From: an uncultured Dehalococcoidia bacterium
Lineage (GTDB): Bacteria; Chloroflexota; Dehalococcoidia; Lucifugimonadales; UBA1127
DNA: 64,000 bases
Direction of reading: 5' to 3'
NCBI GenBank assembly: GCA_964612825.1
Contig: CAZTCW010000051.1
Location: 4,452 to 68,451, forward strand
Part shown: piece by piece, positions 18,742 through 56,471 of the stretch
Position numbering within the stretch: position 1 is the first letter of the stretch
Layout of the letters: every line of letters begins with the position of its first letter
The notes under the pieces: model-generated
Told to the model about the DNA's origin: nothing
The model's database searches: none
Seen by the model: only the letters and a program-made list of their open reading frames with translations
Program-made: the position numbers and the translations under genes

Positions 18742-18818
<77 letters not shown>

Positions 18819-46963: not shown

Positions 46964-47836
46964 TTAATCAGGAATCTGACTTACTTTCACTTCTACATCT
47001 TTAGTGGAAGTAAAGTGTCTTCTTAGTTCCATTTCCTCCGCTGAGAACCCAAGGGCTAAACCAACGAGTTGAGGAAGATGCAAAACGGGCATATCGATTT
47101 CCTTACCAGATTGTTTTTCGGCCCGCGATTGTTGCCCGTCAAGGCTGAGGTGGCATAAGGGGCAAGGAACTACCATCGTATCGGCACCCTTTTCCCTAGC
47201 CTCCCCTGTATGTTTCGCCGTCATGGCAAGAGAATTTGTTTCATTATGAGTTAATATGGGAAATCCGCAGCATTTTCCTTTGCCCCGAATGTCTACGTTC
47301 TCCGCTCCTAGGATGCCGGTTACTTTTTCTATATACCGCTTTCGACCGCCCTCTTTGATTACGTCTTCCGGACGCCTGAGATAACATCCATAAAATGGAG
47401 AGACTTTAACTCCGGCCAGAGGCTTGCCGATGTTTTCTTTTAGTTCGTCTTCACCGACATCTTCCACGAGCACCCAAAGCAAATGTTTTACGTCGGTGGT
47501 CCCTTGGTATTCCAATCCTTGTTCCTTTAAATATTGTTTATTAATCATCTCTCGGTATTCTCGATCCTGTAGTCGGAGCGCGGCGGCACCAATCACCCCG
47601 GTACAGGTGCTGCAGATAGTCATAATTGGTAAGCCAAGTTGTTCTGCCTTGGCTAAGGTTCTCGCATTAATCGGATCTGAAACCTCGGAACTTAAGACGC
47701 CTGCTCCGGTGCATCCAGCGTCCCATAACTCCTCTAGCTCGATCCCTAATTTCCGACATATTTTCACAGTTGCGTTGTACAGTTCAGGGCATGAACCTTT
47801 GGCAACGCAGCCTGGGTAAAAAGCAAAACGTTTCAT
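46964..47836 (-). CDS. CCG-domain iron-sulfur protein (HdrB / SdhE / TfrB-C-terminal-like)
   Basis: 290 aa, two CCG-type repeats. Repeat 1 is YPGC…AGCTGAG…TICSTC, with the CCG degenerate as C-T-G. Repeat 2 is FYGC…KCCGFP…VPCPLC and is intact. Starts 1 nt after the upstream Fe-S subunit stop. Confidence 0.8.
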   Translation of the reverse strand: MKRFAFYPGCVAKGSCPELYNATVKICRKLGIELEELWDAGCTGAGVLSSEVSDPINARTLAKAEQLGLPIMTICSTCTGVIGAAALRLQDREYREMINKQYLKEQGLEYQGTTDVKHLLWVLVEDVGEDELKENIGKPLAGVKVSPFYGCYLRRPEDVIKEGGRKRYIEKVTGILGAENVDIRGKGKCCGFPILTHNETNSLAMTAKHTGEAREKGADTMVVPCPLCHLSLDGQQSRAEKQSGKEIDMPVLHLPQLVGLALGFSAEEMELRRHFTSTKDVEVKVSQIPD

Positions 47837-47837
47837 T

Positions 47838-48854
47838 CTAGGACTCCTTTTCGTTGATCTCTTCTGAGCGCTTGAAGATTTTCTCTACTTCTTTTTGTCC
47901 GGGTCGTTTAGGGTGCGGGAGGAGTGATGCTTTTCCGCGTCGAATCGCTTTCATCGCTATGGGGGCTTGGGAAATAATGCCTGATGGAGAGAACCCATAT
48001 GGAGGAAGGCCGTAGGATTTCGATGCTAAGGCTCTTTCATCCAACCAACCGCTATGACGAACAGATTTTGCGAAGGCATCATAATGTCTCGCAACCATAG
48101 GATTGCCCTTACCGGATTTTACTCCCAGACTTACGGATTGTTCTCGCATTTCTACGATGACGTGGCTTGGTTCGATCCCCCAAGGACAATGTTCGCTTGC
48201 TTCCCAGCAGTGAACGCAATCCCAGAGTCCTCGTCTTTCCCCAGCCTCTTTGAAACGTTGAACCGTATCGGTATCCCGAGGATCTCTAACGAAACGGTAA
48301 AGCTTTGTAAGAGCGGCTGGTCCAAGAAAGGTTTTATCAATGTCAATAACGGTACACCCATCATCGCAAAGACCGCATGCGGTGCAGCGCATCGCCTTAC
48401 GTACAGGCTCTAGGGCTTCCTCGGTGACAGGCTTCTGTCCGGTGCCGTTACTGACAATCCATGGCCGTACAGATTTATATTTGTCCCAGATGAATTGGTT
48501 CCAGTCCATTAAAAGGTCTTTAATTACTTCCGTGTTATGCATGGTAGTAAGGGCGATTTCCCCCTCTTTATTTGCCGCGCTTTCGACAGTAGTAAGACAG
48601 GAGACCAAATGATCTCGTCCGGACCCCAAAGTGCAGTCGCCACACATCCCTGTTCGACATGACCCGCGAAATGCTAGGCTCCCGTCTTGCTCTTCCCGAA
48701 TTTTGACGAGAGCATCTAGGACGCTTGTTCCCGGATCGATATCAAGTGTGTAGCTTTGCTCTGAGGCAGTCCCTCCAACCATTTTCTCAAGGGAAGTATC
48801 CCATTTTCCCGCGGAGTTCTTATCTTGACGAGGGATCTTTATCGTTATCTCCAT
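47838..48854 (-). CDS. SdhB/FrdB-like iron-sulfur subunit with C-terminal extension
   Basis: 338 aa. 2Fe-2S motif SCRTGMCGDC…C, ferredoxin motif CTACGLCDDGC, and a second motif CVHCWEASEHCP (C-x2-C-x6-C-P). A roughly 100-aa C-terminal extension is not present in classical SdhB. Confidence 0.8.
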   Translation of the reverse strand: MEITIKIPRQDKNSAGKWDTSLEKMVGGTASEQSYTLDIDPGTSVLDALVKIREEQDGSLAFRGSCRTGMCGDCTLGSGRDHLVSCLTTVESAANKEGEIALTTMHNTEVIKDLLMDWNQFIWDKYKSVRPWIVSNGTGQKPVTEEALEPVRKAMRCTACGLCDDGCTVIDIDKTFLGPAALTKLYRFVRDPRDTDTVQRFKEAGERRGLWDCVHCWEASEHCPWGIEPSHVIVEMREQSVSLGVKSGKGNPMVARHYDAFAKSVRHSGWLDERALASKSYGLPPYGFSPSGIISQAPIAMKAIRRGKASLLPHPKRPGQKEVEKIFKRSEEINEKES

Positions 48855-48902
48855 TATTTCCTCCCAAAACCGATAAACTAATGTATAGGGAATACTGACG
48901 GA

Positions 48903-50591
48903 TTACCCGGCAGAGGTATTCTTGTAACTTACCTCCAAGCCCGATTCCGTATGCTTGACGATTACGTTTTTGCTCCATTCCTGGTCATCTTTTTCGGTGA
49001 AATCACTTCTGTAGTGCGCGCCACGGCTTTCTTTTCTGGCCGTTGCACTAGCAACAATTGTTTCTGCCGTGTCAAGTAGGAATCCGACTTCGTGATGATG
49101 GAGAATTTCAAAATTATACCCAGATGACTTATTGGAGATACCAGCTTCTGTAAACTGTGCTTTTAGATCTTTTATGGATGTAGCCGCCTCTGTTAAATCC
49201 GACTCATTTCGCGTAAGGCCTACTTTATCGTTCATAATTCGGGATAATTGGCTGCGGACATTGGCTACTGAATGTTTTGGTTCCATTTCAAGTAGGGTAG
49301 CAAAACCGCTTTTTTGGGTTTCTAAGAAATTGTTGGATGGTTGGGAGATAGATGAAGAGTTGGAATAGGCTACTGCAGCAGCCCCGGCCCTTAGCCCAGA
49401 TACAACGGAATATAAAAGAATATTGCCATTCAGGGATCCCGCCCCATGGAAACCCGAGTTGGAGCACTCTCCGGCGGCGTATAGGCCGGGGATAGAGGTC
49501 GCTCCTAATTCGTCCGTAGCGATTCCTCCGAGGATGCGATTCATCGCCGGCGCTACAGGAATTGCATCTTTCGACAAATTCGCTTTTAAAAGCATTCCCA
49601 GTCTGGCGTTGGTCATAAAGAAATTAGCGGAAACTTCCTGTGAAGTTAGACCAGTCTTCAGGAGCACGTGAGATTCTCCATCTTGCTGATTTGCGATTTG
49701 TCGCGAGATAGTCCTAGATAAGTTATGAAGCGACGTTTCGTTTTCGTCCAGCGCTACCGGAATTTCAGTGCCGCTGGGGTCTGTTAGCTCGATCCCCCTA
49801 GCTAAGATAAGCTCACTAATGGCGATAGGTCCGTTATTGATTACAAACGGGTGGTATTCAACCATTTCCATATCCGATAAGTTCGCTCCTCCTCGGTACG
49901 CCATTGCGATACCATCACTGGTGCAGAGGAACGAAGCGGTGGACGGTTCGTAGAGTCTTCGTATTCCCCCTGTGGCTAAAACCACTGATTTTGCTGGAAA
50001 CATTTCTAAATTTCCTGTGGCGACTTCGATCCCAATAACTCCCTTACATTGCCCCTCTTCAATTATCAGTGAGGTGGCATACCATTCCTCAAGGAATTTA
50101 ACGCTTCCTTTTAATGCTTGCTCATAGAGAACCTGCATTAGGGCATGTCCCGTTATATCATCCACTGTGGCGGCACGGGCAGAACTTGACCCAATGAGTT
50201 TGTTCAACTTGAAATGACCTTCGCTATCTCGATTAAGGGGCAGACCCATCTTATCGAGCTCTTCAAGCACTTGTGGGGCTTGCTGACAAATACTTGATAC
50301 TATTTTTTTGTCATTTAGGGATTGGCCAGAACTCAGTGTATCTTCCGCGTGACTTTCCCAGGAATCTCCGTTTCCGATAGAGGCATTAACCCCGTCTTGA
50401 ATGTTGATAGAAAAACTTCTGAGCGGGTGGGTTTTGGTTAGTACCAAAACATTTTTGCCATTCTTGCTTCCTTCGATTGCGGCACGGAGTCCAGCTATTC
50501 CAGAGCCTACAATTAACAAGTCTTCCATGAGCTTCTCTCCAGGTAGGTTTCTGATTTGAACAAATTGGGCCTCATGATAACTTGTGGCCAT
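48903..50591 (-). CDS. SdhA/FrdA-family flavoprotein, divergent active site
   Basis: 562 aa. FAD dinucleotide fold LLIVGSGIAGLRAA, LATGG, EYHP, AAGE…HGA, ESRGAHYRSDF. The covalent-FAD motif R-S-H-T/S reads RSFS. The likely true start is Met22 (50528), which has GGAGAG upstream. Confidence 0.85.
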   Translation of the reverse strand: MATSYHEAQFVQIRNLPGEKLMEDLLIVGSGIAGLRAAIEGSKNGKNVLVLTKTHPLRSFSINIQDGVNASIGNGDSWESHAEDTLSSGQSLNDKKIVSSICQQAPQVLEELDKMGLPLNRDSEGHFKLNKLIGSSSARAATVDDITGHALMQVLYEQALKGSVKFLEEWYATSLIIEEGQCKGVIGIEVATGNLEMFPAKSVVLATGGIRRLYEPSTASFLCTSDGIAMAYRGGANLSDMEMVEYHPFVINNGPIAISELILARGIELTDPSGTEIPVALDENETSLHNLSRTISRQIANQQDGESHVLLKTGLTSQEVSANFFMTNARLGMLLKANLSKDAIPVAPAMNRILGGIATDELGATSIPGLYAAGECSNSGFHGAGSLNGNILLYSVVSGLRAGAAAVAYSNSSSISQPSNNFLETQKSGFATLLEMEPKHSVANVRSQLSRIMNDKVGLTRNESDLTEAATSIKDLKAQFTEAGISNKSSGYNFEILHHHEVGFLLDTAETIVASATARKESRGAHYRSDFTEKDDQEWSKNVIVKHTESGLEVSYKNTSAG

Positions 50592-54050: not shown

Positions 54051-56471
54051 ATGGGTCGGCCGCCTCTAGGACGCAGCGAATTTTTCGGTTATTTGTTTTT
54101 AATTTTTAATTTATTTTTTATAGCTGGAACCGCCTGTTCCACGGATCAAGGATCCTTGAATCAAGGCCGTGACCAAACCGGTGGACCTAACGTTGAAGCC
54201 ACGTCGCCTCTTCAGAGCGCTCCAGAAAAGCCTTCTTCTGATCCTCTTGACGTCAATGCGGCCAAACTTCCTGAAAACCGAATTTTTGGAGGGAATCTTC
54301 GATATTTCGTTCCTCCAGATTGGGATCAAGCTCTCGTCATTTCTTCATTCCCTGACCCCTCATCTTCAATTAGCTCCCCCCCGATTGAAGACCTTTATAT
54401 AAGTTGGTCAATTGTCAGAGACGGGGAATTTTTGCTTACAACTGAATTTTTTGTGGATCTATATTTGGATGGCACTTTCCTTGAACGATGGAAAGTTGAT
54501 GCTTTAAATCCTGGAATACCGAAGATTATGTCTGGTTGGAGCGAACTTCTTTACCGAACTAATTTGAGCGCAGGGGAACATCAATTGGAATTGGTGATTG
54601 ATTCCACCGATCTAATCCTTGAAGATGATGAGGAAGATAATATCATTCTAATGAATTTTAGCGTCCCCAAAGATTCTTCCTCCATAGTCGAACCTACAAT
54701 TGCATTGGACCGTCTGCCAAATCTTATCCCTTTTACACCTCCGGGGTGGGACAATCCTATCAGGGTAAGAAACAATCAGGGTGCTTCGAACGGATTTGAA
54801 ATCGGAGAGGATCTTGAAATTCAAGTAGCCTTCAAAAACTCAGGCCTCTCAAGCGTAGACAGAAATTTTCTTGCCTATCTTTACCTTGATGAGATCCCGG
54901 TAGCAAAATTTTCCGAGCGAAATTTGATCGCCGACGAGGCGATAGTAACGTCAGAATGGTCTGGCCTGAATACTGTTTTGAGAATTGCTCCTGGCCAACA
55001 TACGTTCACGCTGGTGGTTGATCCTACACAATTAATCCAAGAAACCAAGGAGACTGATAATATCTTTACACGTACGGTAACTTGGGGACAAAATATGGAG
55101 ATTCCTAATGAAGCAGCCTTGATTCCATCTCAAATAAATTCTGGCTCGATAGGGCCGTTGGTTCCCCCGGGTTGGGATTCACCGTTAATAGTTACCTCTG
55201 TGCCTGGGAGCTTCATCTCCTCTTATGCGCTCAATTCTCTTGATCCAGCATTTGTGCATTGGGCTATGGTAAACCGAGGGGATCTGCCGTATGAAACACC
55301 ATACGAGATTGAACTGCATCTGGATGGGCGTATGATAAATTCATGGAACCGAACCCGGTTGGAATCGAATGAAACAGATATTGTATTTGACTGGGTTTTA
55401 GTTCCGCCCCTTGATGTGTATTCCACTTCGAAATTGGAGTTATTCGGACGGTTATTAGACGATTCGGGGAAACCAAAAGAAGTACTACTAGCTACAAAAT
55501 TGATACGATGGTCTGCTGGCCCCCAAAGTATCGAAACCAGCACTTTGGGGTTGGGAAGGTTATCACCCACTGAGCAATTAGTGTCATTGGAAGCCCTTCT
55601 GTCTACGAATAAATCGTTGATTAGTCACATAGGGCTGGTGAACAACCGAGCGATCCTAGATCTCGCTGATTCGGTTTACTACGAAATTTATTCTAAACGA
55701 CTTTCCAGCGAGGAGGTAAAAATTCACCTTCTAAGCGAATCAGAATACTCCCTCTGGATTTCAATTGAGTGTAAGGATCGAGGAAGTTATATCGCGGAAG
55801 AGGCTAGGGAGGAATACATTGACCAGTGTCACAGGATCGATGAGTTTGGAGGATTTTTCACCTACTGGAGAAACCATTTTCATGTCGTAATTCAAGCGGA
55901 ACGGCCTCCTATGAAAGTGTTCGAAACATTGGCGCATGAACTCGGACATTTCCGGCAAAGCCTAACAAATCCGCAAATAAATTCTACGAACCAGTCATTA
56001 AATGTGTTGGCCTTTAGGGAAGCTCAAGCATATAGCCATCAGGTTCTGTTTGTTCGTACCTTGGGAGAATTAGTAGGACGTGACCTTTTATCCTATCCAA
56101 AACTTGACGGATATGAATGGTTTATTGATCACGGGATTGACCAGTTGATGGATGGAGCCGATTCGAACGAGCATGACCGAGGTAGATTGCTACTCTGGTT
56201 ATCCGTTCTCACTGATCCTAAACTTGGCAATGCCAGAAATGCGTTATTGTTGAATAAATATTTAACTCCCGAGGCTGCGAAAGAAGTATTCTTGTATTTA
56301 CTGAGTTTCCGTCCTTCGATGATCTCTCCTTACGTAGCTGAGCAAATGGAAGCGAATAAAACCTATGAAAGTGTGATTTTGGAGATAGGTAATTCTCGGT
56401 TGTCATTCGGGGTTTCTTATTGGAATGAAGGATCCCCCTACTTGAGAGAGACAGGTCTTTTGTTACCTTAA
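54051..56471 (+). CDS. Exported (lipoprotein-like) protein with three CARDB-like repeats and a C-terminal HExxH zincin-like domain
   Basis: 806 aa. Signal peptide ending IAGTAC. Three roughly 120-aa repeats each open with PP(D/G)WD-x-(A/P)-(L/I)-(V/R)-(I/V). Repeats 1-2 end in E-(E/T)-D-N-I and repeat 3 has only N-E-T-D-I. HELGH occurs at …FETLAHELGHFRQS…. Confidence 0.6.
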   Translation: MGRPPLGRSEFFGYLFLIFNLFFIAGTACSTDQGSLNQGRDQTGGPNVEATSPLQSAPEKPSSDPLDVNAAKLPENRIFGGNLRYFVPPDWDQALVISSFPDPSSSISSPPIEDLYISWSIVRDGEFLLTTEFFVDLYLDGTFLERWKVDALNPGIPKIMSGWSELLYRTNLSAGEHQLELVIDSTDLILEDDEEDNIILMNFSVPKDSSSIVEPTIALDRLPNLIPFTPPGWDNPIRVRNNQGASNGFEIGEDLEIQVAFKNSGLSSVDRNFLAYLYLDEIPVAKFSERNLIADEAIVTSEWSGLNTVLRIAPGQHTFTLVVDPTQLIQETKETDNIFTRTVTWGQNMEIPNEAALIPSQINSGSIGPLVPPGWDSPLIVTSVPGSFISSYALNSLDPAFVHWAMVNRGDLPYETPYEIELHLDGRMINSWNRTRLESNETDIVFDWVLVPPLDVYSTSKLELFGRLLDDSGKPKEVLLATKLIRWSAGPQSIETSTLGLGRLSPTEQLVSLEALLSTNKSLISHIGLVNNRAILDLADSVYYEIYSKRLSSEEVKIHLLSESEYSLWISIECKDRGSYIAEEAREEYIDQCHRIDEFGGFFTYWRNHFHVVIQAERPPMKVFETLAHELGHFRQSLTNPQINSTNQSLNVLAFREAQAYSHQVLFVRTLGELVGRDLLSYPKLDGYEWFIDHGIDQLMDGADSNEHDRGRLLLWLSVLTDPKLGNARNALLLNKYLTPEAAKEVFLYLLSFRPSMISPYVAEQMEANKTYESVILEIGNSRLSFGVSYWNEGSPYLRETGLLLP

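What the first reader, a model, noticed from the sequence alone, without database searches (positions are those of the whole stretch)
48903..50591. The SdhA-like flavoprotein appears to lack the covalent-FAD His and two canonical dicarboxylate-binding residues
I aligned the ORF by eye to E. coli SdhA, recalled from memory.
- The flavinylation motif ...FPTRSHTVSAQGG... corresponds here to ...HPLRSFSINIQDG..., so His45 becomes Phe (codon TTT at 50412-50414, ORF-track residue 60).
- ...FHPTGI... corresponds to ...YHPFVI... (His kept, Thr to Phe).
- ...PTCHYMMGGI... corresponds to ...PAMNRILGGI... (substrate His354 to Asn).
- ...HGANRLGGNSLL... corresponds to ...HGAGSLNGNILL... (substrate Arg399 to Ser).
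- The RGEGG proton-shuttle Arg (as ARG) and the C-terminal ESRGAHxRxDF motif are retained.

Loss of covalent FAD is known to abolish succinate oxidation while sparing reductase chemistry. Loss of the His/Arg carboxylate clamp suggests the substrate may not be succinate or fumarate at all. This would be an SdhA-fold enzyme repurposed for an unknown substrate, wired to an Fe-S/CCG electron module.
Basis: partly seen in the sequence, partly recalled or inferred. Interest (0 to 1): 0.7.

Follow-up and report, generated by a model that had tools for sequence, protein, structure and literature searches.

The report
Succinate-dehydrogenase look-alike with rebuilt active site
A marine SAR202-related Chloroflexota genome carries a three-gene copy of the succinate dehydrogenase machinery whose flavin subunit has lost nearly every residue needed to hold or convert succinate or fumarate; this variant is rare but conserved, and annotation pipelines still label it as complex II.

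Summary
Rigorous alignments to E. coli SdhA place Phe60 at His45, Phe249 at Thr244, Asn351 at His354 and Ser386 at Arg399. The RGEGG arginine (Arg258) aligns with Leu263, so it is not retained. The true acid/base arginine (Arg286) falls in a deletion. Gly51 next to the flavin is Asp66.

The gene is not a pseudogene. It belongs to a monophyletic clade of about 55-60 sequence clusters, named only from Chloroflexota. In that clade Arg399, Arg258, Thr244 and Arg286 are never present. New residues (Asp66, Arg211, Arg352 and others) are invariant. The order sdhA'-sdhB'-CCG is kept in every locus examined.

The flavoprotein evolves several-fold faster than its Fe-S and HdrB-like partners, the reverse of canonical type-E operons. 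Its capping domain is the most degraded part. A less derived sister clade sits on the same chromosome as a canonical sdhABE operon, so the lineage began as a paralogue.

Most likely this is a type-E complex II derivative with non-covalent FAD that no longer interconverts succinate and fumarate. The substrate is unknown. The closest characterised relative is the His-less methylmenaquinol:fumarate reductase of Wolinella. I rate it a new variant of a known kind, of moderate interest.

The parts
48903..50528 (-). sdhA' gene: SdhA/FrdA-fold flavoprotein of the 'QDG clade' (541 aa from Met22; the mechanical ORF runs to 50591)
   Evidence: AF2 model pLDDT 93.7, and Foldseek query-normalised TM about 0.92-0.93 for the top SdhA/FrdA structures
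50391..50420 (-). RSFSINIQDG: flavinylation motif with Phe60 in place of His45 and Asp66 in place of Gly51
   Evidence: Asp66 is 53/53 in the clade, Gly is 60/60 in canonical relatives
49845..49853 (-). HPF: His247 (= His242, kept) and Phe249 (= Thr244, lost)
49794..49823 (-). AISELILARG: Ala257 (= Leu252), Ser259 (= Thr254), Glu260 (= Glu255), Leu263 (= Arg258 of RGEGG); Arg265 is out of register
49719..49748 (-). remnant of the capping-domain loop that carries the catalytic Arg286 in canonical enzymes; no arginine at that column, and the lowest-confidence block of the model (pLDDT 69)
   Evidence: role of Arg286 from PMC9557727
49524..49550 (-). PAMNRILGG: Asn351 (= His354) and clade-invariant Arg352 (= Tyr355)
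49422..49448 (-). HGAGSLNGN: Ser386 (= Arg399) and Asn388 (= Gly401; Asp in 40/53 clade members)
49002..49031 (-). ESRGAHYRSD C-terminal motif, retained
47838..48854 (-). sdhB' gene: type-E-like Fe-S subunit (338 aa) with C-terminal extension
48183..48218 (-). third-cluster motif CVHCWEASEHCP (C-x2-C-x2-Ala-x3-CP); canonical type-E partners have C-x2-C-x2-Cys-x3-CP
46964..47836 (-). sdhE' gene: HdrB-like protein with two CCG domains (290 aa), separated from sdhB' by a single base
   Evidence: (HdrB E 5.6e-45)

Best explanation
This gene encodes the flavoprotein of a derived, Chloroflexota-restricted paralogue lineage of type-E complex II (SdhA'-SdhB'-SdhE').

Shown:
- The protein keeps the full SdhA fold and the FAD-binding scaffold.
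- It has lost the covalent-FAD His, the Arg needed both for flavinylation and for holding the substrate carboxylate (Arg399), the acid/base Arg286, Arg258, Thr244 and, in this sub-lineage, His354.
- A new invariant set has replaced them: Asp66, Arg211, Arg212, Arg352, Ala257, Thr327.
- The Fe-S partner has co-diverged; its third-cluster motif lacks one Cys.
- The HdrB-like CCG partner is almost unchanged.

Inferred:
- FAD is bound non-covalently.
- The pocket no longer binds a C4-dicarboxylate dianion. Two carboxylate-clamp positives are gone and one or two acidic or amide side chains have been added next to the flavin.
- The complex therefore does not interconvert succinate and fumarate.
- It still works as a cytoplasmic, membrane-associated redox module. 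Electrons pass between the flavin and the quinone pool through the [2Fe-2S], the [4Fe-4S], the altered third cluster and the CCG subunit.
- The flavin reacts with a different, probably neutral or cationic, partner that is not yet identifiable.
For: - Register and losses.
- Clade-wide pattern in 53 sequences: Arg399 0/53, Arg258 0/53, Thr244 0/53, Gly51->Asp 53/53, Tyr355->Arg 52/53, His45 only 6/53. No arginine at the Arg286 column, and the loop is deleted in 17/53.
- Roles of Arg286 (protonation/deprotonation) and Arg399 (quinone-methide stabilisation for flavinylation, substrate carboxylate H-bond): PMC9557727.
- Not a pseudogene: intact ORF; dN/dS 0.11 against an 87%-identical orthologue; the clade is monophyletic in 100/100 NJ bootstraps; it has clade-specific invariant residues; FAD-binding glycines and the ESRG.H.R.D motif are invariant across 61 sequences.
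- Folded model: pLDDT 93.7, Foldseek query-normalised TM about 0.92-0.93 for the top SdhA/FrdA structures.
- Operon A'-B'-CCG in all 11 lineage loci examined.
- Paralogue origin: the QDG clade plus the intermediate clades are monophyletic in 94/100 bootstraps and sister to canonical type E. Intermediate-clade P0093 and canonical P0064 lie on the same circular 3.53 Mb contig.
- Fails every NCBIfam cutoff: SdhA/FrdA 399.6 vs 567; NadB 313 vs 453; TfrA 307 vs 718; MFR 279 vs 1100.
- The partner SdhB' motif changes in step.
Against: - No substrate can be named, and no conserved metabolic neighbour gene exists. Neighbours are housekeeping genes: pyruvate kinase, H+-PPase, NTP-transferase, PPIase.
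- The flavoprotein is the least conserved subunit and its capping domain is relaxed. Several pocket positions vary inside the clade: position 60 Y/F/H, 249 A/C/F/Y/S, 351 H/S/Y/N. This is unexpected for a tightly specific new active site.
- I could not inspect model coordinates, so the spatial roles of Asp66, Arg352 and Asn388 are inferred from residue equivalences only.
- I could not establish whether genomes carrying this clade also carry a canonical sdhA.
Confidence: 0.55

Rival explanations
1. The flavoprotein is catalytically silent. It is kept as an FAD-holding scaffold or electron relay for the SdhB'-SdhE' module, and the real chemistry (disulfide or quinone reduction) takes place at the HdrB-like non-cubane clusters. 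Alternatively the flavin reacts only non-specifically, for example with O2 or a generic donor.
For: - Conservation order is inverted. Window vs L086: A' 66%, B' 89%, CCG 95% identity. Window vs L087: A' 87% (dN/dS 0.109), B' 99% (0.012). In canonical type-E operons A is the most conserved subunit in 26 of 28 pairs.
- The capping domain has fallen to the level of the least constrained domain: 0.43 vs 0.69 mean pairwise identity.
- 17/53 members delete the Arg286 loop; 9/53 lack His242 and 13/53 lack Glu255, and most of these losses are in the deletion forms.
- The CCG subunit matches HdrB over its full length (E 5.6e-45).
Against: - Clade-specific invariant charged residues sit in or next to the old pocket (Asp66, Arg352, Arg211/212). 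This argues for a maintained site rather than free decay.
- dN/dS is still 0.11.
- The FAD-binding motifs are invariant.
- A scaffold would still need an electron source or sink at the flavin.
Confidence: 0.22
2. It is still the organism's succinate dehydrogenase or fumarate reductase. It would use a non-canonical solution in which Arg352, Arg211/212 and His247 replace the lost clamp, and another residue replaces Arg286.
For: - The genomic setting is among housekeeping and central-metabolism genes (pyruvate kinase in L004, L090 and L092).
- No canonical SdhA from the large QDG-bearing contigs (3.05, 2.38, 2.53, 3.06, 2.96 Mb) appeared among about 130 canonical or intermediate clusters listed.
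- New invariant arginines exist.
- Gln65, Glu260, Ser259 and His247 are kept in this protein.
Against: - Every residue with an experimentally established catalytic role except His242 and Glu255 is gone.
- The loop carrying the acid/base Arg is deleted outright in a third of the clade.
- Asp66, and Asp388 in most members, add negative charge where a dianion must bind.
- Non-covalent FAD abolishes succinate oxidation in QFR, SQR and MFR (PMC2680327).
- The absence of a second sdhA is only weakly supported, because the lists are cut at 120 entries.
Confidence: 0.15
3. It is a decaying pseudogene or an assembly/annotation artefact.
For: It has a faster rate than its partners and a degraded capping domain.
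Against: - The reading frame is intact, and identical sequence occurs in independent public assemblies.
- dN/dS is 0.11.
- It is conserved down to 38-42% identity in about 55-60 clusters with the operon intact.
- The fold is predicted with high confidence.
Confidence: 0.03
4. It is a member of another known branch of the superfamily: L-aspartate oxidase NadB, thiol:fumarate reductase TfrA, or APS reductase AprA.
For: Like NadB, it lacks the covalent His. It gives partial hits to the NadB and TfrA models.
Against: - Scores are below all cutoffs: NadB 313 vs 453, TfrA 307 vs 718, AprA 118 vs 557.
- NadB-like representatives keep HPT, RGEG, HY..GG and HGANRL.
- The operon partners are SdhB plus a separate CCG protein, not a fused TfrB or AprB.
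- The clade branches with type-E SdhA, not with the NadB outgroup.
Confidence: 0.03

Closest known systems
8-methylmenaquinol:fumarate reductase (MFR, SdhABE/MfrABE) of Wolinella succinogenes and Campylobacter jejuni
   Same: Both are type-E three-subunit complexes: a flavoprotein, an SdhB with a C-terminal extension, and a CCG '10-cysteine' SdhE. In both, the flavoprotein naturally lacks the covalent-FAD histidine (Ala86 in MFR) and binds FAD non-covalently. Both were annotated as succinate dehydrogenase, yet MFR has no succinate oxidation activity (PMC2680327).
   Different: MFR still reduces fumarate, and a single Ala86->His change restores covalent FAD, so its Arg399-type machinery is intact. 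Here Arg399, Arg286, Arg258, Thr244 and His354 are all missing. MFR is exported by a Tat signal. This protein starts at profile position 49 of the MFR model, after the signal, and has no twin-arginine motif. Its score is 279 against a cutoff of 1100.
Canonical type-E succinate:quinone oxidoreductase (SdhABE(F)) of Sulfolobus/Acidianus and of Dehalococcoidia MAGs
   Same: The gene order A-B-CCG is the same. SdhE' is 48-55% identical to the SdhE of canonical Dehalococcoidia, Nitrospirales and Bacillota operons. The first CCG motif reads 'CTG' in both. The SdhB C-terminal extension is the same.
   Different: Canonical flavoproteins keep all catalytic residues (60/60) and are the most conserved subunit. 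Their SdhB has four Cys in the third-cluster motif, whereas here the third is Ala. No SdhF-like gene is seen next to this operon.
Intermediate 'SdhA-prime' clades in Chloroflexota metagenomes (e.g. P0093, P0081, P0045)
   Same: They share a monophyletic lineage with the QDG clade (94/100 bootstraps). They share Tyr355->Arg, loss of the RGEGG Arg, the A'-B'-CCG order, and the C-x2-C-x2-Ala-x3-CP motif in SdhB'.
   Different: They still have His45 (most members), HPT, the PRD(I/V) catalytic Arg (the P0062/78/81/93 group), His354 and often Arg399. They are uncharacterised.
Thiol:fumarate reductase TfrAB of methanogens (from my own knowledge of the family, plus the NCBIfam models)
   Same: An SdhA-fold flavoprotein is coupled to Fe-S and CCG domains without a haem anchor.
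   Different: TfrB fuses the Fe-S and CCG parts, and TfrA reduces fumarate. Scores are far below the cutoffs: TfrA 307 vs 718, TfrB 96 vs 385.
CCG/Fe-S electron-exit modules of other flavin dehydrogenases (GlpC, GlcF, LutA/LldE, LdhH); a 'works like' comparison only
   Same: CCG proteins serve as the redox link for dehydrogenases of non-dicarboxylate substrates. Weak hits to GlpC, GlcF and LdhH models were seen.
   Different: Their catalytic flavoproteins are unrelated to SdhA. No membership is claimed.

Membership tests
SdhA/FrdA (succinate:quinone / quinol:fumarate oxidoreductase flavoprotein) | FAD_binding_2 + Succ_DH_flav_C architecture and the four-domain SdhA fold | tested here: met
   Pfam 1.8e-67 and 3.9e-30. 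AF2 pLDDT 93.7; Foldseek query-normalised TM about 0.92-0.93 for the top SdhA/FrdA structures.
SdhA/FrdA | Score above the curated family cutoff (TIGR01812 and equivalogs) | tested here: not met
   399.6 bits vs cutoff 567.3; below cutoff for every one of the 25 models listed (the best of 64 matches).
SdhA/FrdA | Histidine for the 8-alpha-N3-histidyl FAD link (E. coli SdhA His45) | tested here: not met
   Phe60, codon TTT at 50412-50414; His in only 6/53 clade members.
SdhA/FrdA | Acid/base arginine on the capping domain (SdhA Arg286 / FrdA Arg287) | tested here: not met
   Falls in a deletion in the 1nek_A alignment. There is no Arg at that column in the clade, and the loop is deleted in 17/53. 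Role from PMC9557727.
SdhA/FrdA | Carboxylate clamp His354 + Arg399 | tested here: not met
   Asn351 and Ser386. Arg399 is 0/53 in the clade; His354 is 36/53 but absent in the query sub-lineage.
SdhA/FrdA | His242, Thr254 and Glu255 of the active-site loop | tested here: met
   His247, Ser259 (conservative; Ser is also found in 16/60 canonical sequences) and Glu260.
SdhA/FrdA | HPT threonine (SdhA Thr244 / FrdA Thr234) and RGEGG arginine (Arg258) | tested here: not met
   Phe249 and Leu263; both residues are 0/53 in the clade and 60/60 in canonical relatives.
SdhA/FrdA | Succinate oxidation or fumarate reduction activity | not testable with these tools
   Needs an enzyme assay.
Type-E complex II (SdhABE) | SdhB with a C-terminal extension followed by a two-CCG-domain SdhE instead of a haem anchor | tested here: met
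   PRK12577 matched at positions 15-322 of 330. The SdhE model gives 193 bits and HdrB matches at E 5.6e-45. The gene order is conserved.
Type-E complex II (SdhABE) | Four-Cys third-cluster motif (a second [4Fe-4S] in place of [3Fe-4S]) | tested here: not met
   CVHCWEASEHCP: the third Cys is Ala in 5/5 QDG partners, whereas Cys is present in 12 canonical partners plus L089. The type-E pattern is as described in PMC2680327.
Type-E complex II (SdhABE) | Curated cutoffs for the MFR/type-E subunit models | tested here: not met
   MFR SdhA 279 vs 1100; MFR SdhB 122 vs 600; MFR SdhE 193 vs 500; PRK12576 183 vs 344.
MFR (MfrABE) | Tat signal on the flavoprotein (periplasmic orientation) | tested here: not met
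   The match begins at profile position 49 of 612. The N-terminus MEDLLIVGSG has no RR motif. The Tat requirement is from PMC2680327.
L-aspartate oxidase (NadB) | Family cutoff and retention of the HPT / RGEG / HY..GG / HGANR motifs | tested here: not met
   313 bits vs cutoff 452.75. NadB-like representatives keep these motifs. The clade branches apart from the NadB outgroup.
Thiol:fumarate reductase (TfrAB) | TfrA cutoff and a fused Fe-S/CCG TfrB | tested here: not met
   TfrA 307 vs 718. The B and CCG parts are separate genes here, and TfrB scores 96 vs 385.

The most novel reading that the evidence does not exclude
A Chloroflexota-specific offshoot of type-E complex II has converted the dicarboxylate pocket of SdhA into a different catalytic site. 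The invariant Asp66, Arg211/212 and Arg352 replace the Arg/His clamp. This would create a new quinone-linked respiratory dehydrogenase or reductase for a non-dicarboxylate substrate (neutral, cationic or monocarboxylate) in SAR202-related deep-ocean bacteria. In a stronger form, catalysis has moved to the HdrB-like subunit, with the flavoprotein reduced to an electron relay.
Probability: 0.3. Interest if true: 0.75.

Novelty: new variant of a known kind. Interest (0 to 1): 0.55.

Why it matters
**Annotation.** JGI labels clade members and their partners 'succinate dehydrogenase / fumarate reductase flavoprotein', '...iron-sulfur subunit' and even '...cytochrome b subunit'. Metabolic reconstructions of SAR202-related and other Chloroflexota MAGs will therefore count a complex II and a closed TCA cycle on the strength of a protein that lacks the catalytic residues.

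**Enzymology.** The lineage offers a natural series: canonical, then intermediate, then QDG, then QDG with the capping loop deleted. Along it the complex II flavoprotein is progressively stripped of its catalytic residues, while the Fe-S and CCG partners become more conserved rather than less. This is a handle on what the type-E SdhB-SdhE module does by itself, which is still unresolved.

**Context.** The representative search shows many other SdhA-like clusters with non-canonical pockets, so this is one visible case of an under-described radiation. The interest is moderate rather than high, because no substrate or phenotype can yet be attached to it.

Tried and rejected
- **Co-occurrence with a canonical sdhA.** I tried to decide this for QDG-bearing genomes by matching 'longest contig' lengths in the hit lists. 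No match was found for the 2.4-3.1 Mb QDG contigs, but the lists stop at 120 entries, so the result is only suggestive. Co-occurrence was proven only for the intermediate clade.
- **Gene neighbourhoods.** Eleven loci were inspected for a conserved metabolic partner and none was found. The 239-aa gene after the CCG gene in L004 has a 237-aa, likewise Pfam-less gene at the same position in the related deletion-form locus L092 (homology not checked), but no counterpart in the other loci. The CoA-transferase, enoyl-CoA hydratase and thiolase context of L088 is not shared by L093 or the P0081 locus.
- **Literature.** Searches for this clade found nothing specific.
- **Source record.** An exact look-up of the window protein's contig failed.
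- **Rejected readings.** Pseudogene, NadB, TfrA and AprA were each rejected (see the rival explanations).
Full report
**What is at the coordinates.** The ORF 48903..50591 on the minus strand (562 aa) is followed on the same strand by a 338-aa ORF (47838..48854, 48-base gap) and a 290-aa ORF (46964..47836, 1-base gap). Pfam assigns FAD_binding_2 plus Succ_DH_flav_C to the first. It assigns the SdhB-type 2Fe-2S and 4Fe-4S domains to the second, and two CCG domains to the third. The third protein matches heterodisulfide reductase HdrB over its whole length (E 5.6e-45). All homologues, and the publicly called version of this gene, are 541 aa. A GGAGAG ribosome-binding site precedes Met22, so the real start is probably 50528.

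**Check of the observation.** HMMER pairwise alignments to solved SdhA/FrdA chains (6lum_A, 9fq7_2M, 1nek_A, 2b76_A) agree on the register with a MAFFT alignment of 121 sequences. In E. coli SdhA numbering the equivalences are:
- Gly51 -> Asp66.
- His242 = His247.
- Thr244 -> Phe249.
- Leu252 -> Ala257.
- Thr254 -> Ser259.
- Glu255 = Glu260.
- Arg258 -> Leu263.
- His354 -> Asn351.
- Tyr355 -> Arg352.
- Arg399 -> Ser386.
- Gly401 -> Asn388.
- The ESRGAH.R.D motif is kept.

The 60 canonical relatives in the same alignment keep His45, Thr244, Arg258, His354 and Arg399 in 60/60 sequences. The arginine in 'ARG' (Arg265) is two columns away from the RGEGG arginine, and its column is variable in the clade. 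Moreover the acid/base catalyst is not the RGEGG arginine but Arg286 (FrdA Arg287) on the capping domain (PMC9557727). In the 1nek_A alignment, Arg286-Asp-Val falls in a deletion of the query. The active site is thus more thoroughly dismantled than reported.

**It is a conserved family, not an accident.** Of the 120 best database homologues, 53 share the signature RS[YFH]S..QDG / HP[ACFYS]V / no RGEGG / PAM.R.LGG / HGA..[LM].GN. I call this the QDG clade. Within these 53 sequences:
- Arg399, Arg258 and Thr244 are never present.
- Gly51->Asp is 53/53 and Tyr355->Arg is 52/53.
- His45 survives in 6 (Tyr 35, Phe 11).
- His354 survives in 36. Asn351 together with Asn388 is peculiar to the query and its three closest relatives; most members have His plus Asp.
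- His242 survives in 44 and Glu255 in 40.
- No member has an arginine at the Arg286 column, and 17 have deleted that loop, giving proteins of about 500 aa.

Because Arg399 is needed for the quinone-methide chemistry of flavinylation, even the six His-bearing members probably hold FAD non-covalently. That last step is inference.

The clade has its own invariant residues: Asp66, Gly89, Pro118, Arg211, Arg212, Ser217, Thr327, Met350, Arg352 and Leu354. It keeps the FAD-binding glycines and the C-terminal motif. It is monophyletic in 100/100 neighbour-joining bootstraps. A profile of the clade scores its members at 665-850 bits, and all other proteins at 623 bits or less. The clade amounts to roughly 55-60 clusters at 90% identity among 5.8 billion proteins, and about three clusters at 50% identity among 1.84 billion representatives. 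The only organism names attached are 'Chloroflexi/Chloroflexota bacterium'.

**Selection.** Against an 87%-identical orthologue (L087), dN/dS of the flavoprotein gene is 0.109 (dS 0.65). This is purifying selection. It is nine times the value for the adjacent sdhB' gene (0.012, 99% identical). Against the fully syntenic locus L086 the identities are A' 66%, B' 89% and CCG 95%. For comparison, H+-PPase is 89% and Era 69%. Against L001 they are 50%, 62% and 76%. In eight canonical type-E operons the order is the opposite: in 26 of 28 pairs the flavoprotein is at least as conserved as both partners, for example 0.79/0.68/0.70. Domain by domain, the capping domain has dropped to the level of the least constrained domain (mean pairwise identity 0.43 against 0.69 in canonical sequences), whereas the FAD domain is much less affected. 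The AlphaFold2 model is confident (pLDDT 93.7). Its top SdhA/FrdA structure matches have query-normalised TM of about 0.92-0.93. Its only weak internal block (pLDDT 69; only the last C-terminal residue scores lower) is the remnant of the Arg286 loop.

**The partners and the operon.** The order A'-B'-CCG is kept in all eleven loci of the lineage that I retrieved. The CCG subunit is 48-55% identical to the SdhE of canonical type-E operons from Dehalococcoidia, Nitrospirales and Bacillota MAGs. It shares with them a 'CTG' in place of the first 'CCG'. SdhB' keeps the 2Fe-2S and first 4Fe-4S motifs. Its third-cluster motif is C-x2-C-x2-Ala-x3-CP (CVHCWEA[ST]EHCP) in all five QDG partners and in the intermediate-clade partner. 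Canonical partners, including the one on the same chromosome as an intermediate-clade operon, have the four-Cys type-E pattern (pattern described in PMC2680327). Neighbouring genes are housekeeping genes: NTP-transferase and H+-PPase in the window, L086 and L001; pyruvate kinase in L004, L090 and L092; a PPIase in three loci. No metabolic gene travels with the operon.

**Origin.** Several 'intermediate' clades (for example P0062/78/81/93 and P0045/52) already have Tyr355->Arg and have lost the RGEGG arginine. They still keep His45, HPT, His354 and, in the P0062/78/81/93 group, the PRD(I/V) arginine. They group with the QDG clade in 94/100 bootstraps, as sister to canonical type-E SdhA. One of them (P0093, with its own B' and CCG genes) lies on the same circular 3.53 Mb contig as a canonical sdhABE operon (P0064). 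The lineage therefore started as a paralogue of type-E complex II and lost the catalytic residues stepwise. Whether QDG-bearing genomes still have a canonical copy could not be settled.

**Organism.** The window's GyrB is 100% identical to a Logan assembly protein. Its best named relatives are 'SAR202 cluster bacterium' (69% and 67%) and 'Dehalococcoidia bacterium' (61%). A close relative of its Era protein comes from a Tara mesopelagic sample. The source is a marine Chloroflexota related to SAR202.

**How it most likely works.**
- Shown: an SdhA-fold FAD protein that lacks the covalent His, the carboxylate clamp and both arginines of the proton pathway, with acidic or amide side chains added beside the flavin. 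It is coupled to a co-diverged SdhB and an almost unchanged HdrB-like SdhE. It has no Tat signal, so it is cytoplasmic (the match starts at MFR model position 49).
- Inferred: FAD is non-covalent, and hence low-potential and unable to oxidise succinate. This was shown for His-less QFR, SQR and MFR. The pocket cannot hold a dianionic C4 substrate, so fumarate reduction is also lost. The Fe-S chain and the CCG subunit still connect the flavin to the quinone pool as in type-E enzymes.
- Unknown: the flavin's reaction partner.

The charge reversal points to a neutral, cationic or monocarboxylate substrate. The relaxed capping domain and the variable pocket positions point instead to a non-specific or relay role. 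I put 0.55 on 'derived type-E complex that has left succinate/fumarate chemistry and uses another flavin substrate', 0.22 on 'silent or relay flavoprotein', 0.15 on 'still an SDH/FRD by a non-canonical route', and about 0.03 each on pseudogene and on membership of another known family.

**Comparison with what is known.** The closest characterised system is the methylmenaquinol:fumarate reductase SdhABE of Wolinella and Campylobacter. It is type E, has Ala in place of the covalent His, binds FAD non-covalently, shows no succinate oxidation, and was originally mis-annotated as SDH. It differs in being Tat-exported and in retaining fumarate reduction and the flavinylation machinery. The present protein fails every curated family cutoff: SdhA/FrdA 399.6 vs 567, NadB 313 vs 453, TfrA 307 vs 718, MFR 279 vs 1100. 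I found no paper describing this clade. The representative search shows that many other SdhA-like clusters also have non-canonical pockets, so this is one branch of a wider, largely undescribed radiation.

**Verdict.** This is a new variant of a known kind. Interest is moderate (0.55), mainly as an annotation trap for Chloroflexota/SAR202 metabolism and as a natural dissection of type-E complex II.

Noticed in passing
window 48183-48218 (sdhB'); also L001, L004, L086, L087, L088: The third Fe-S cluster motif of the SdhB-like partner is C-x2-C-x2-Ala-x3-CP (CVHCWEA[ST]EHCP). Canonical type-E SdhB has four Cys. The missing ligand is the third Cys, not the second as in ordinary [3Fe-4S] SdhB, and conserved Glu and His residues flank it. 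The change tracks the divergent flavoprotein lineage.
   Followed up: partly
window 46964-50528 versus L086, L087, L001: The order of subunit conservation is inverted: flavoprotein 66%, SdhB' 89% and CCG 95% identity at the same divergence. In canonical type-E operons the flavoprotein is the most conserved subunit.
   Followed up: yes
L088 8001-11483 and L089 8001-11514 (both on ERZ25069191:ctg587083_18x_c, 3.53 Mb circular): A second, less derived SdhA'-SdhB'-CCG operon (QVG, LAEGG, HRHMGG; it keeps His45, HPT and the PRD arginine) coexists with a canonical sdhABE operon on one chromosome. In L088 it is surrounded by family-III CoA-transferases, enoyl-CoA hydratases, a thiolase/ChsH2-like pair and SDRs. 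This hints at a substituted-dicarboxylate or acyl-CoA pathway, but other loci of that clade do not share this context.
   Followed up: partly
representative proteins P0177-P0322: Among the 150 best 50%-identity representatives, many SdhA-like proteins with the C-terminal domain have other non-canonical pockets (e.g. P0177, P0178, P0193-P0199, P0207, P0213, P0217, P0218). This is distinct from NadB-like sequences, which keep the catalytic motifs. It points to a broad undescribed radiation of the SdhA fold.
   Followed up: no
window 50529-50591: The mechanical ORF starts 21 codons upstream of the likely true start (Met22 at 50528). Homologues and the public gene call are 541 aa, and a GGAGAG site precedes Met22.
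   Followed up: yes
window 47699-47716 (sdhE'): The first CCG motif reads CTG, so the protein has 9 rather than 10 Cys. This is shared with the SdhE of the canonical Chloroflexota, Nitrospirales and Bacillota type-E operons examined, but not with the Sulfurimonadaceae MFR-like SdhE (CCG).
   Followed up: partly
L004 8266-9702, L090 4507-5832, L092 5261-6700: Pyruvate kinase lies upstream of the QDG operon on the opposite strand in three loci (directly adjacent in L004 and L092; a 201-aa gene lies between in L090). The window, L086 and L001 instead share NTP-transferase plus H+-pyrophosphatase at that position.
   Followed up: no
QDG-clade alignment, columns of query residues 351 and 388: The query and its three closest relatives have Asn351 plus Asn388, where 29 of 53 clade members have His plus Asp. 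This is a paired change, suggesting that the two positions interact.
   Followed up: partly
window 54051-56471 (+): An 806-aa CARDB-domain protein with an N-terminal hydrophobic segment is syntenic in L086 and partly in L001. No function is assigned.
   Followed up: no
window 1-64000: The window is a housekeeping region: GyrA, GyrB, PolA, LeuRS, glycine-cleavage P protein, trehalose-6-phosphate synthase-like GT20, and one tRNA at 18747-18818. GC content is 41-48%. The closest named GyrB relatives are SAR202 cluster bacteria (69%), and a Tara mesopelagic relative of Era exists.
   Followed up: partly
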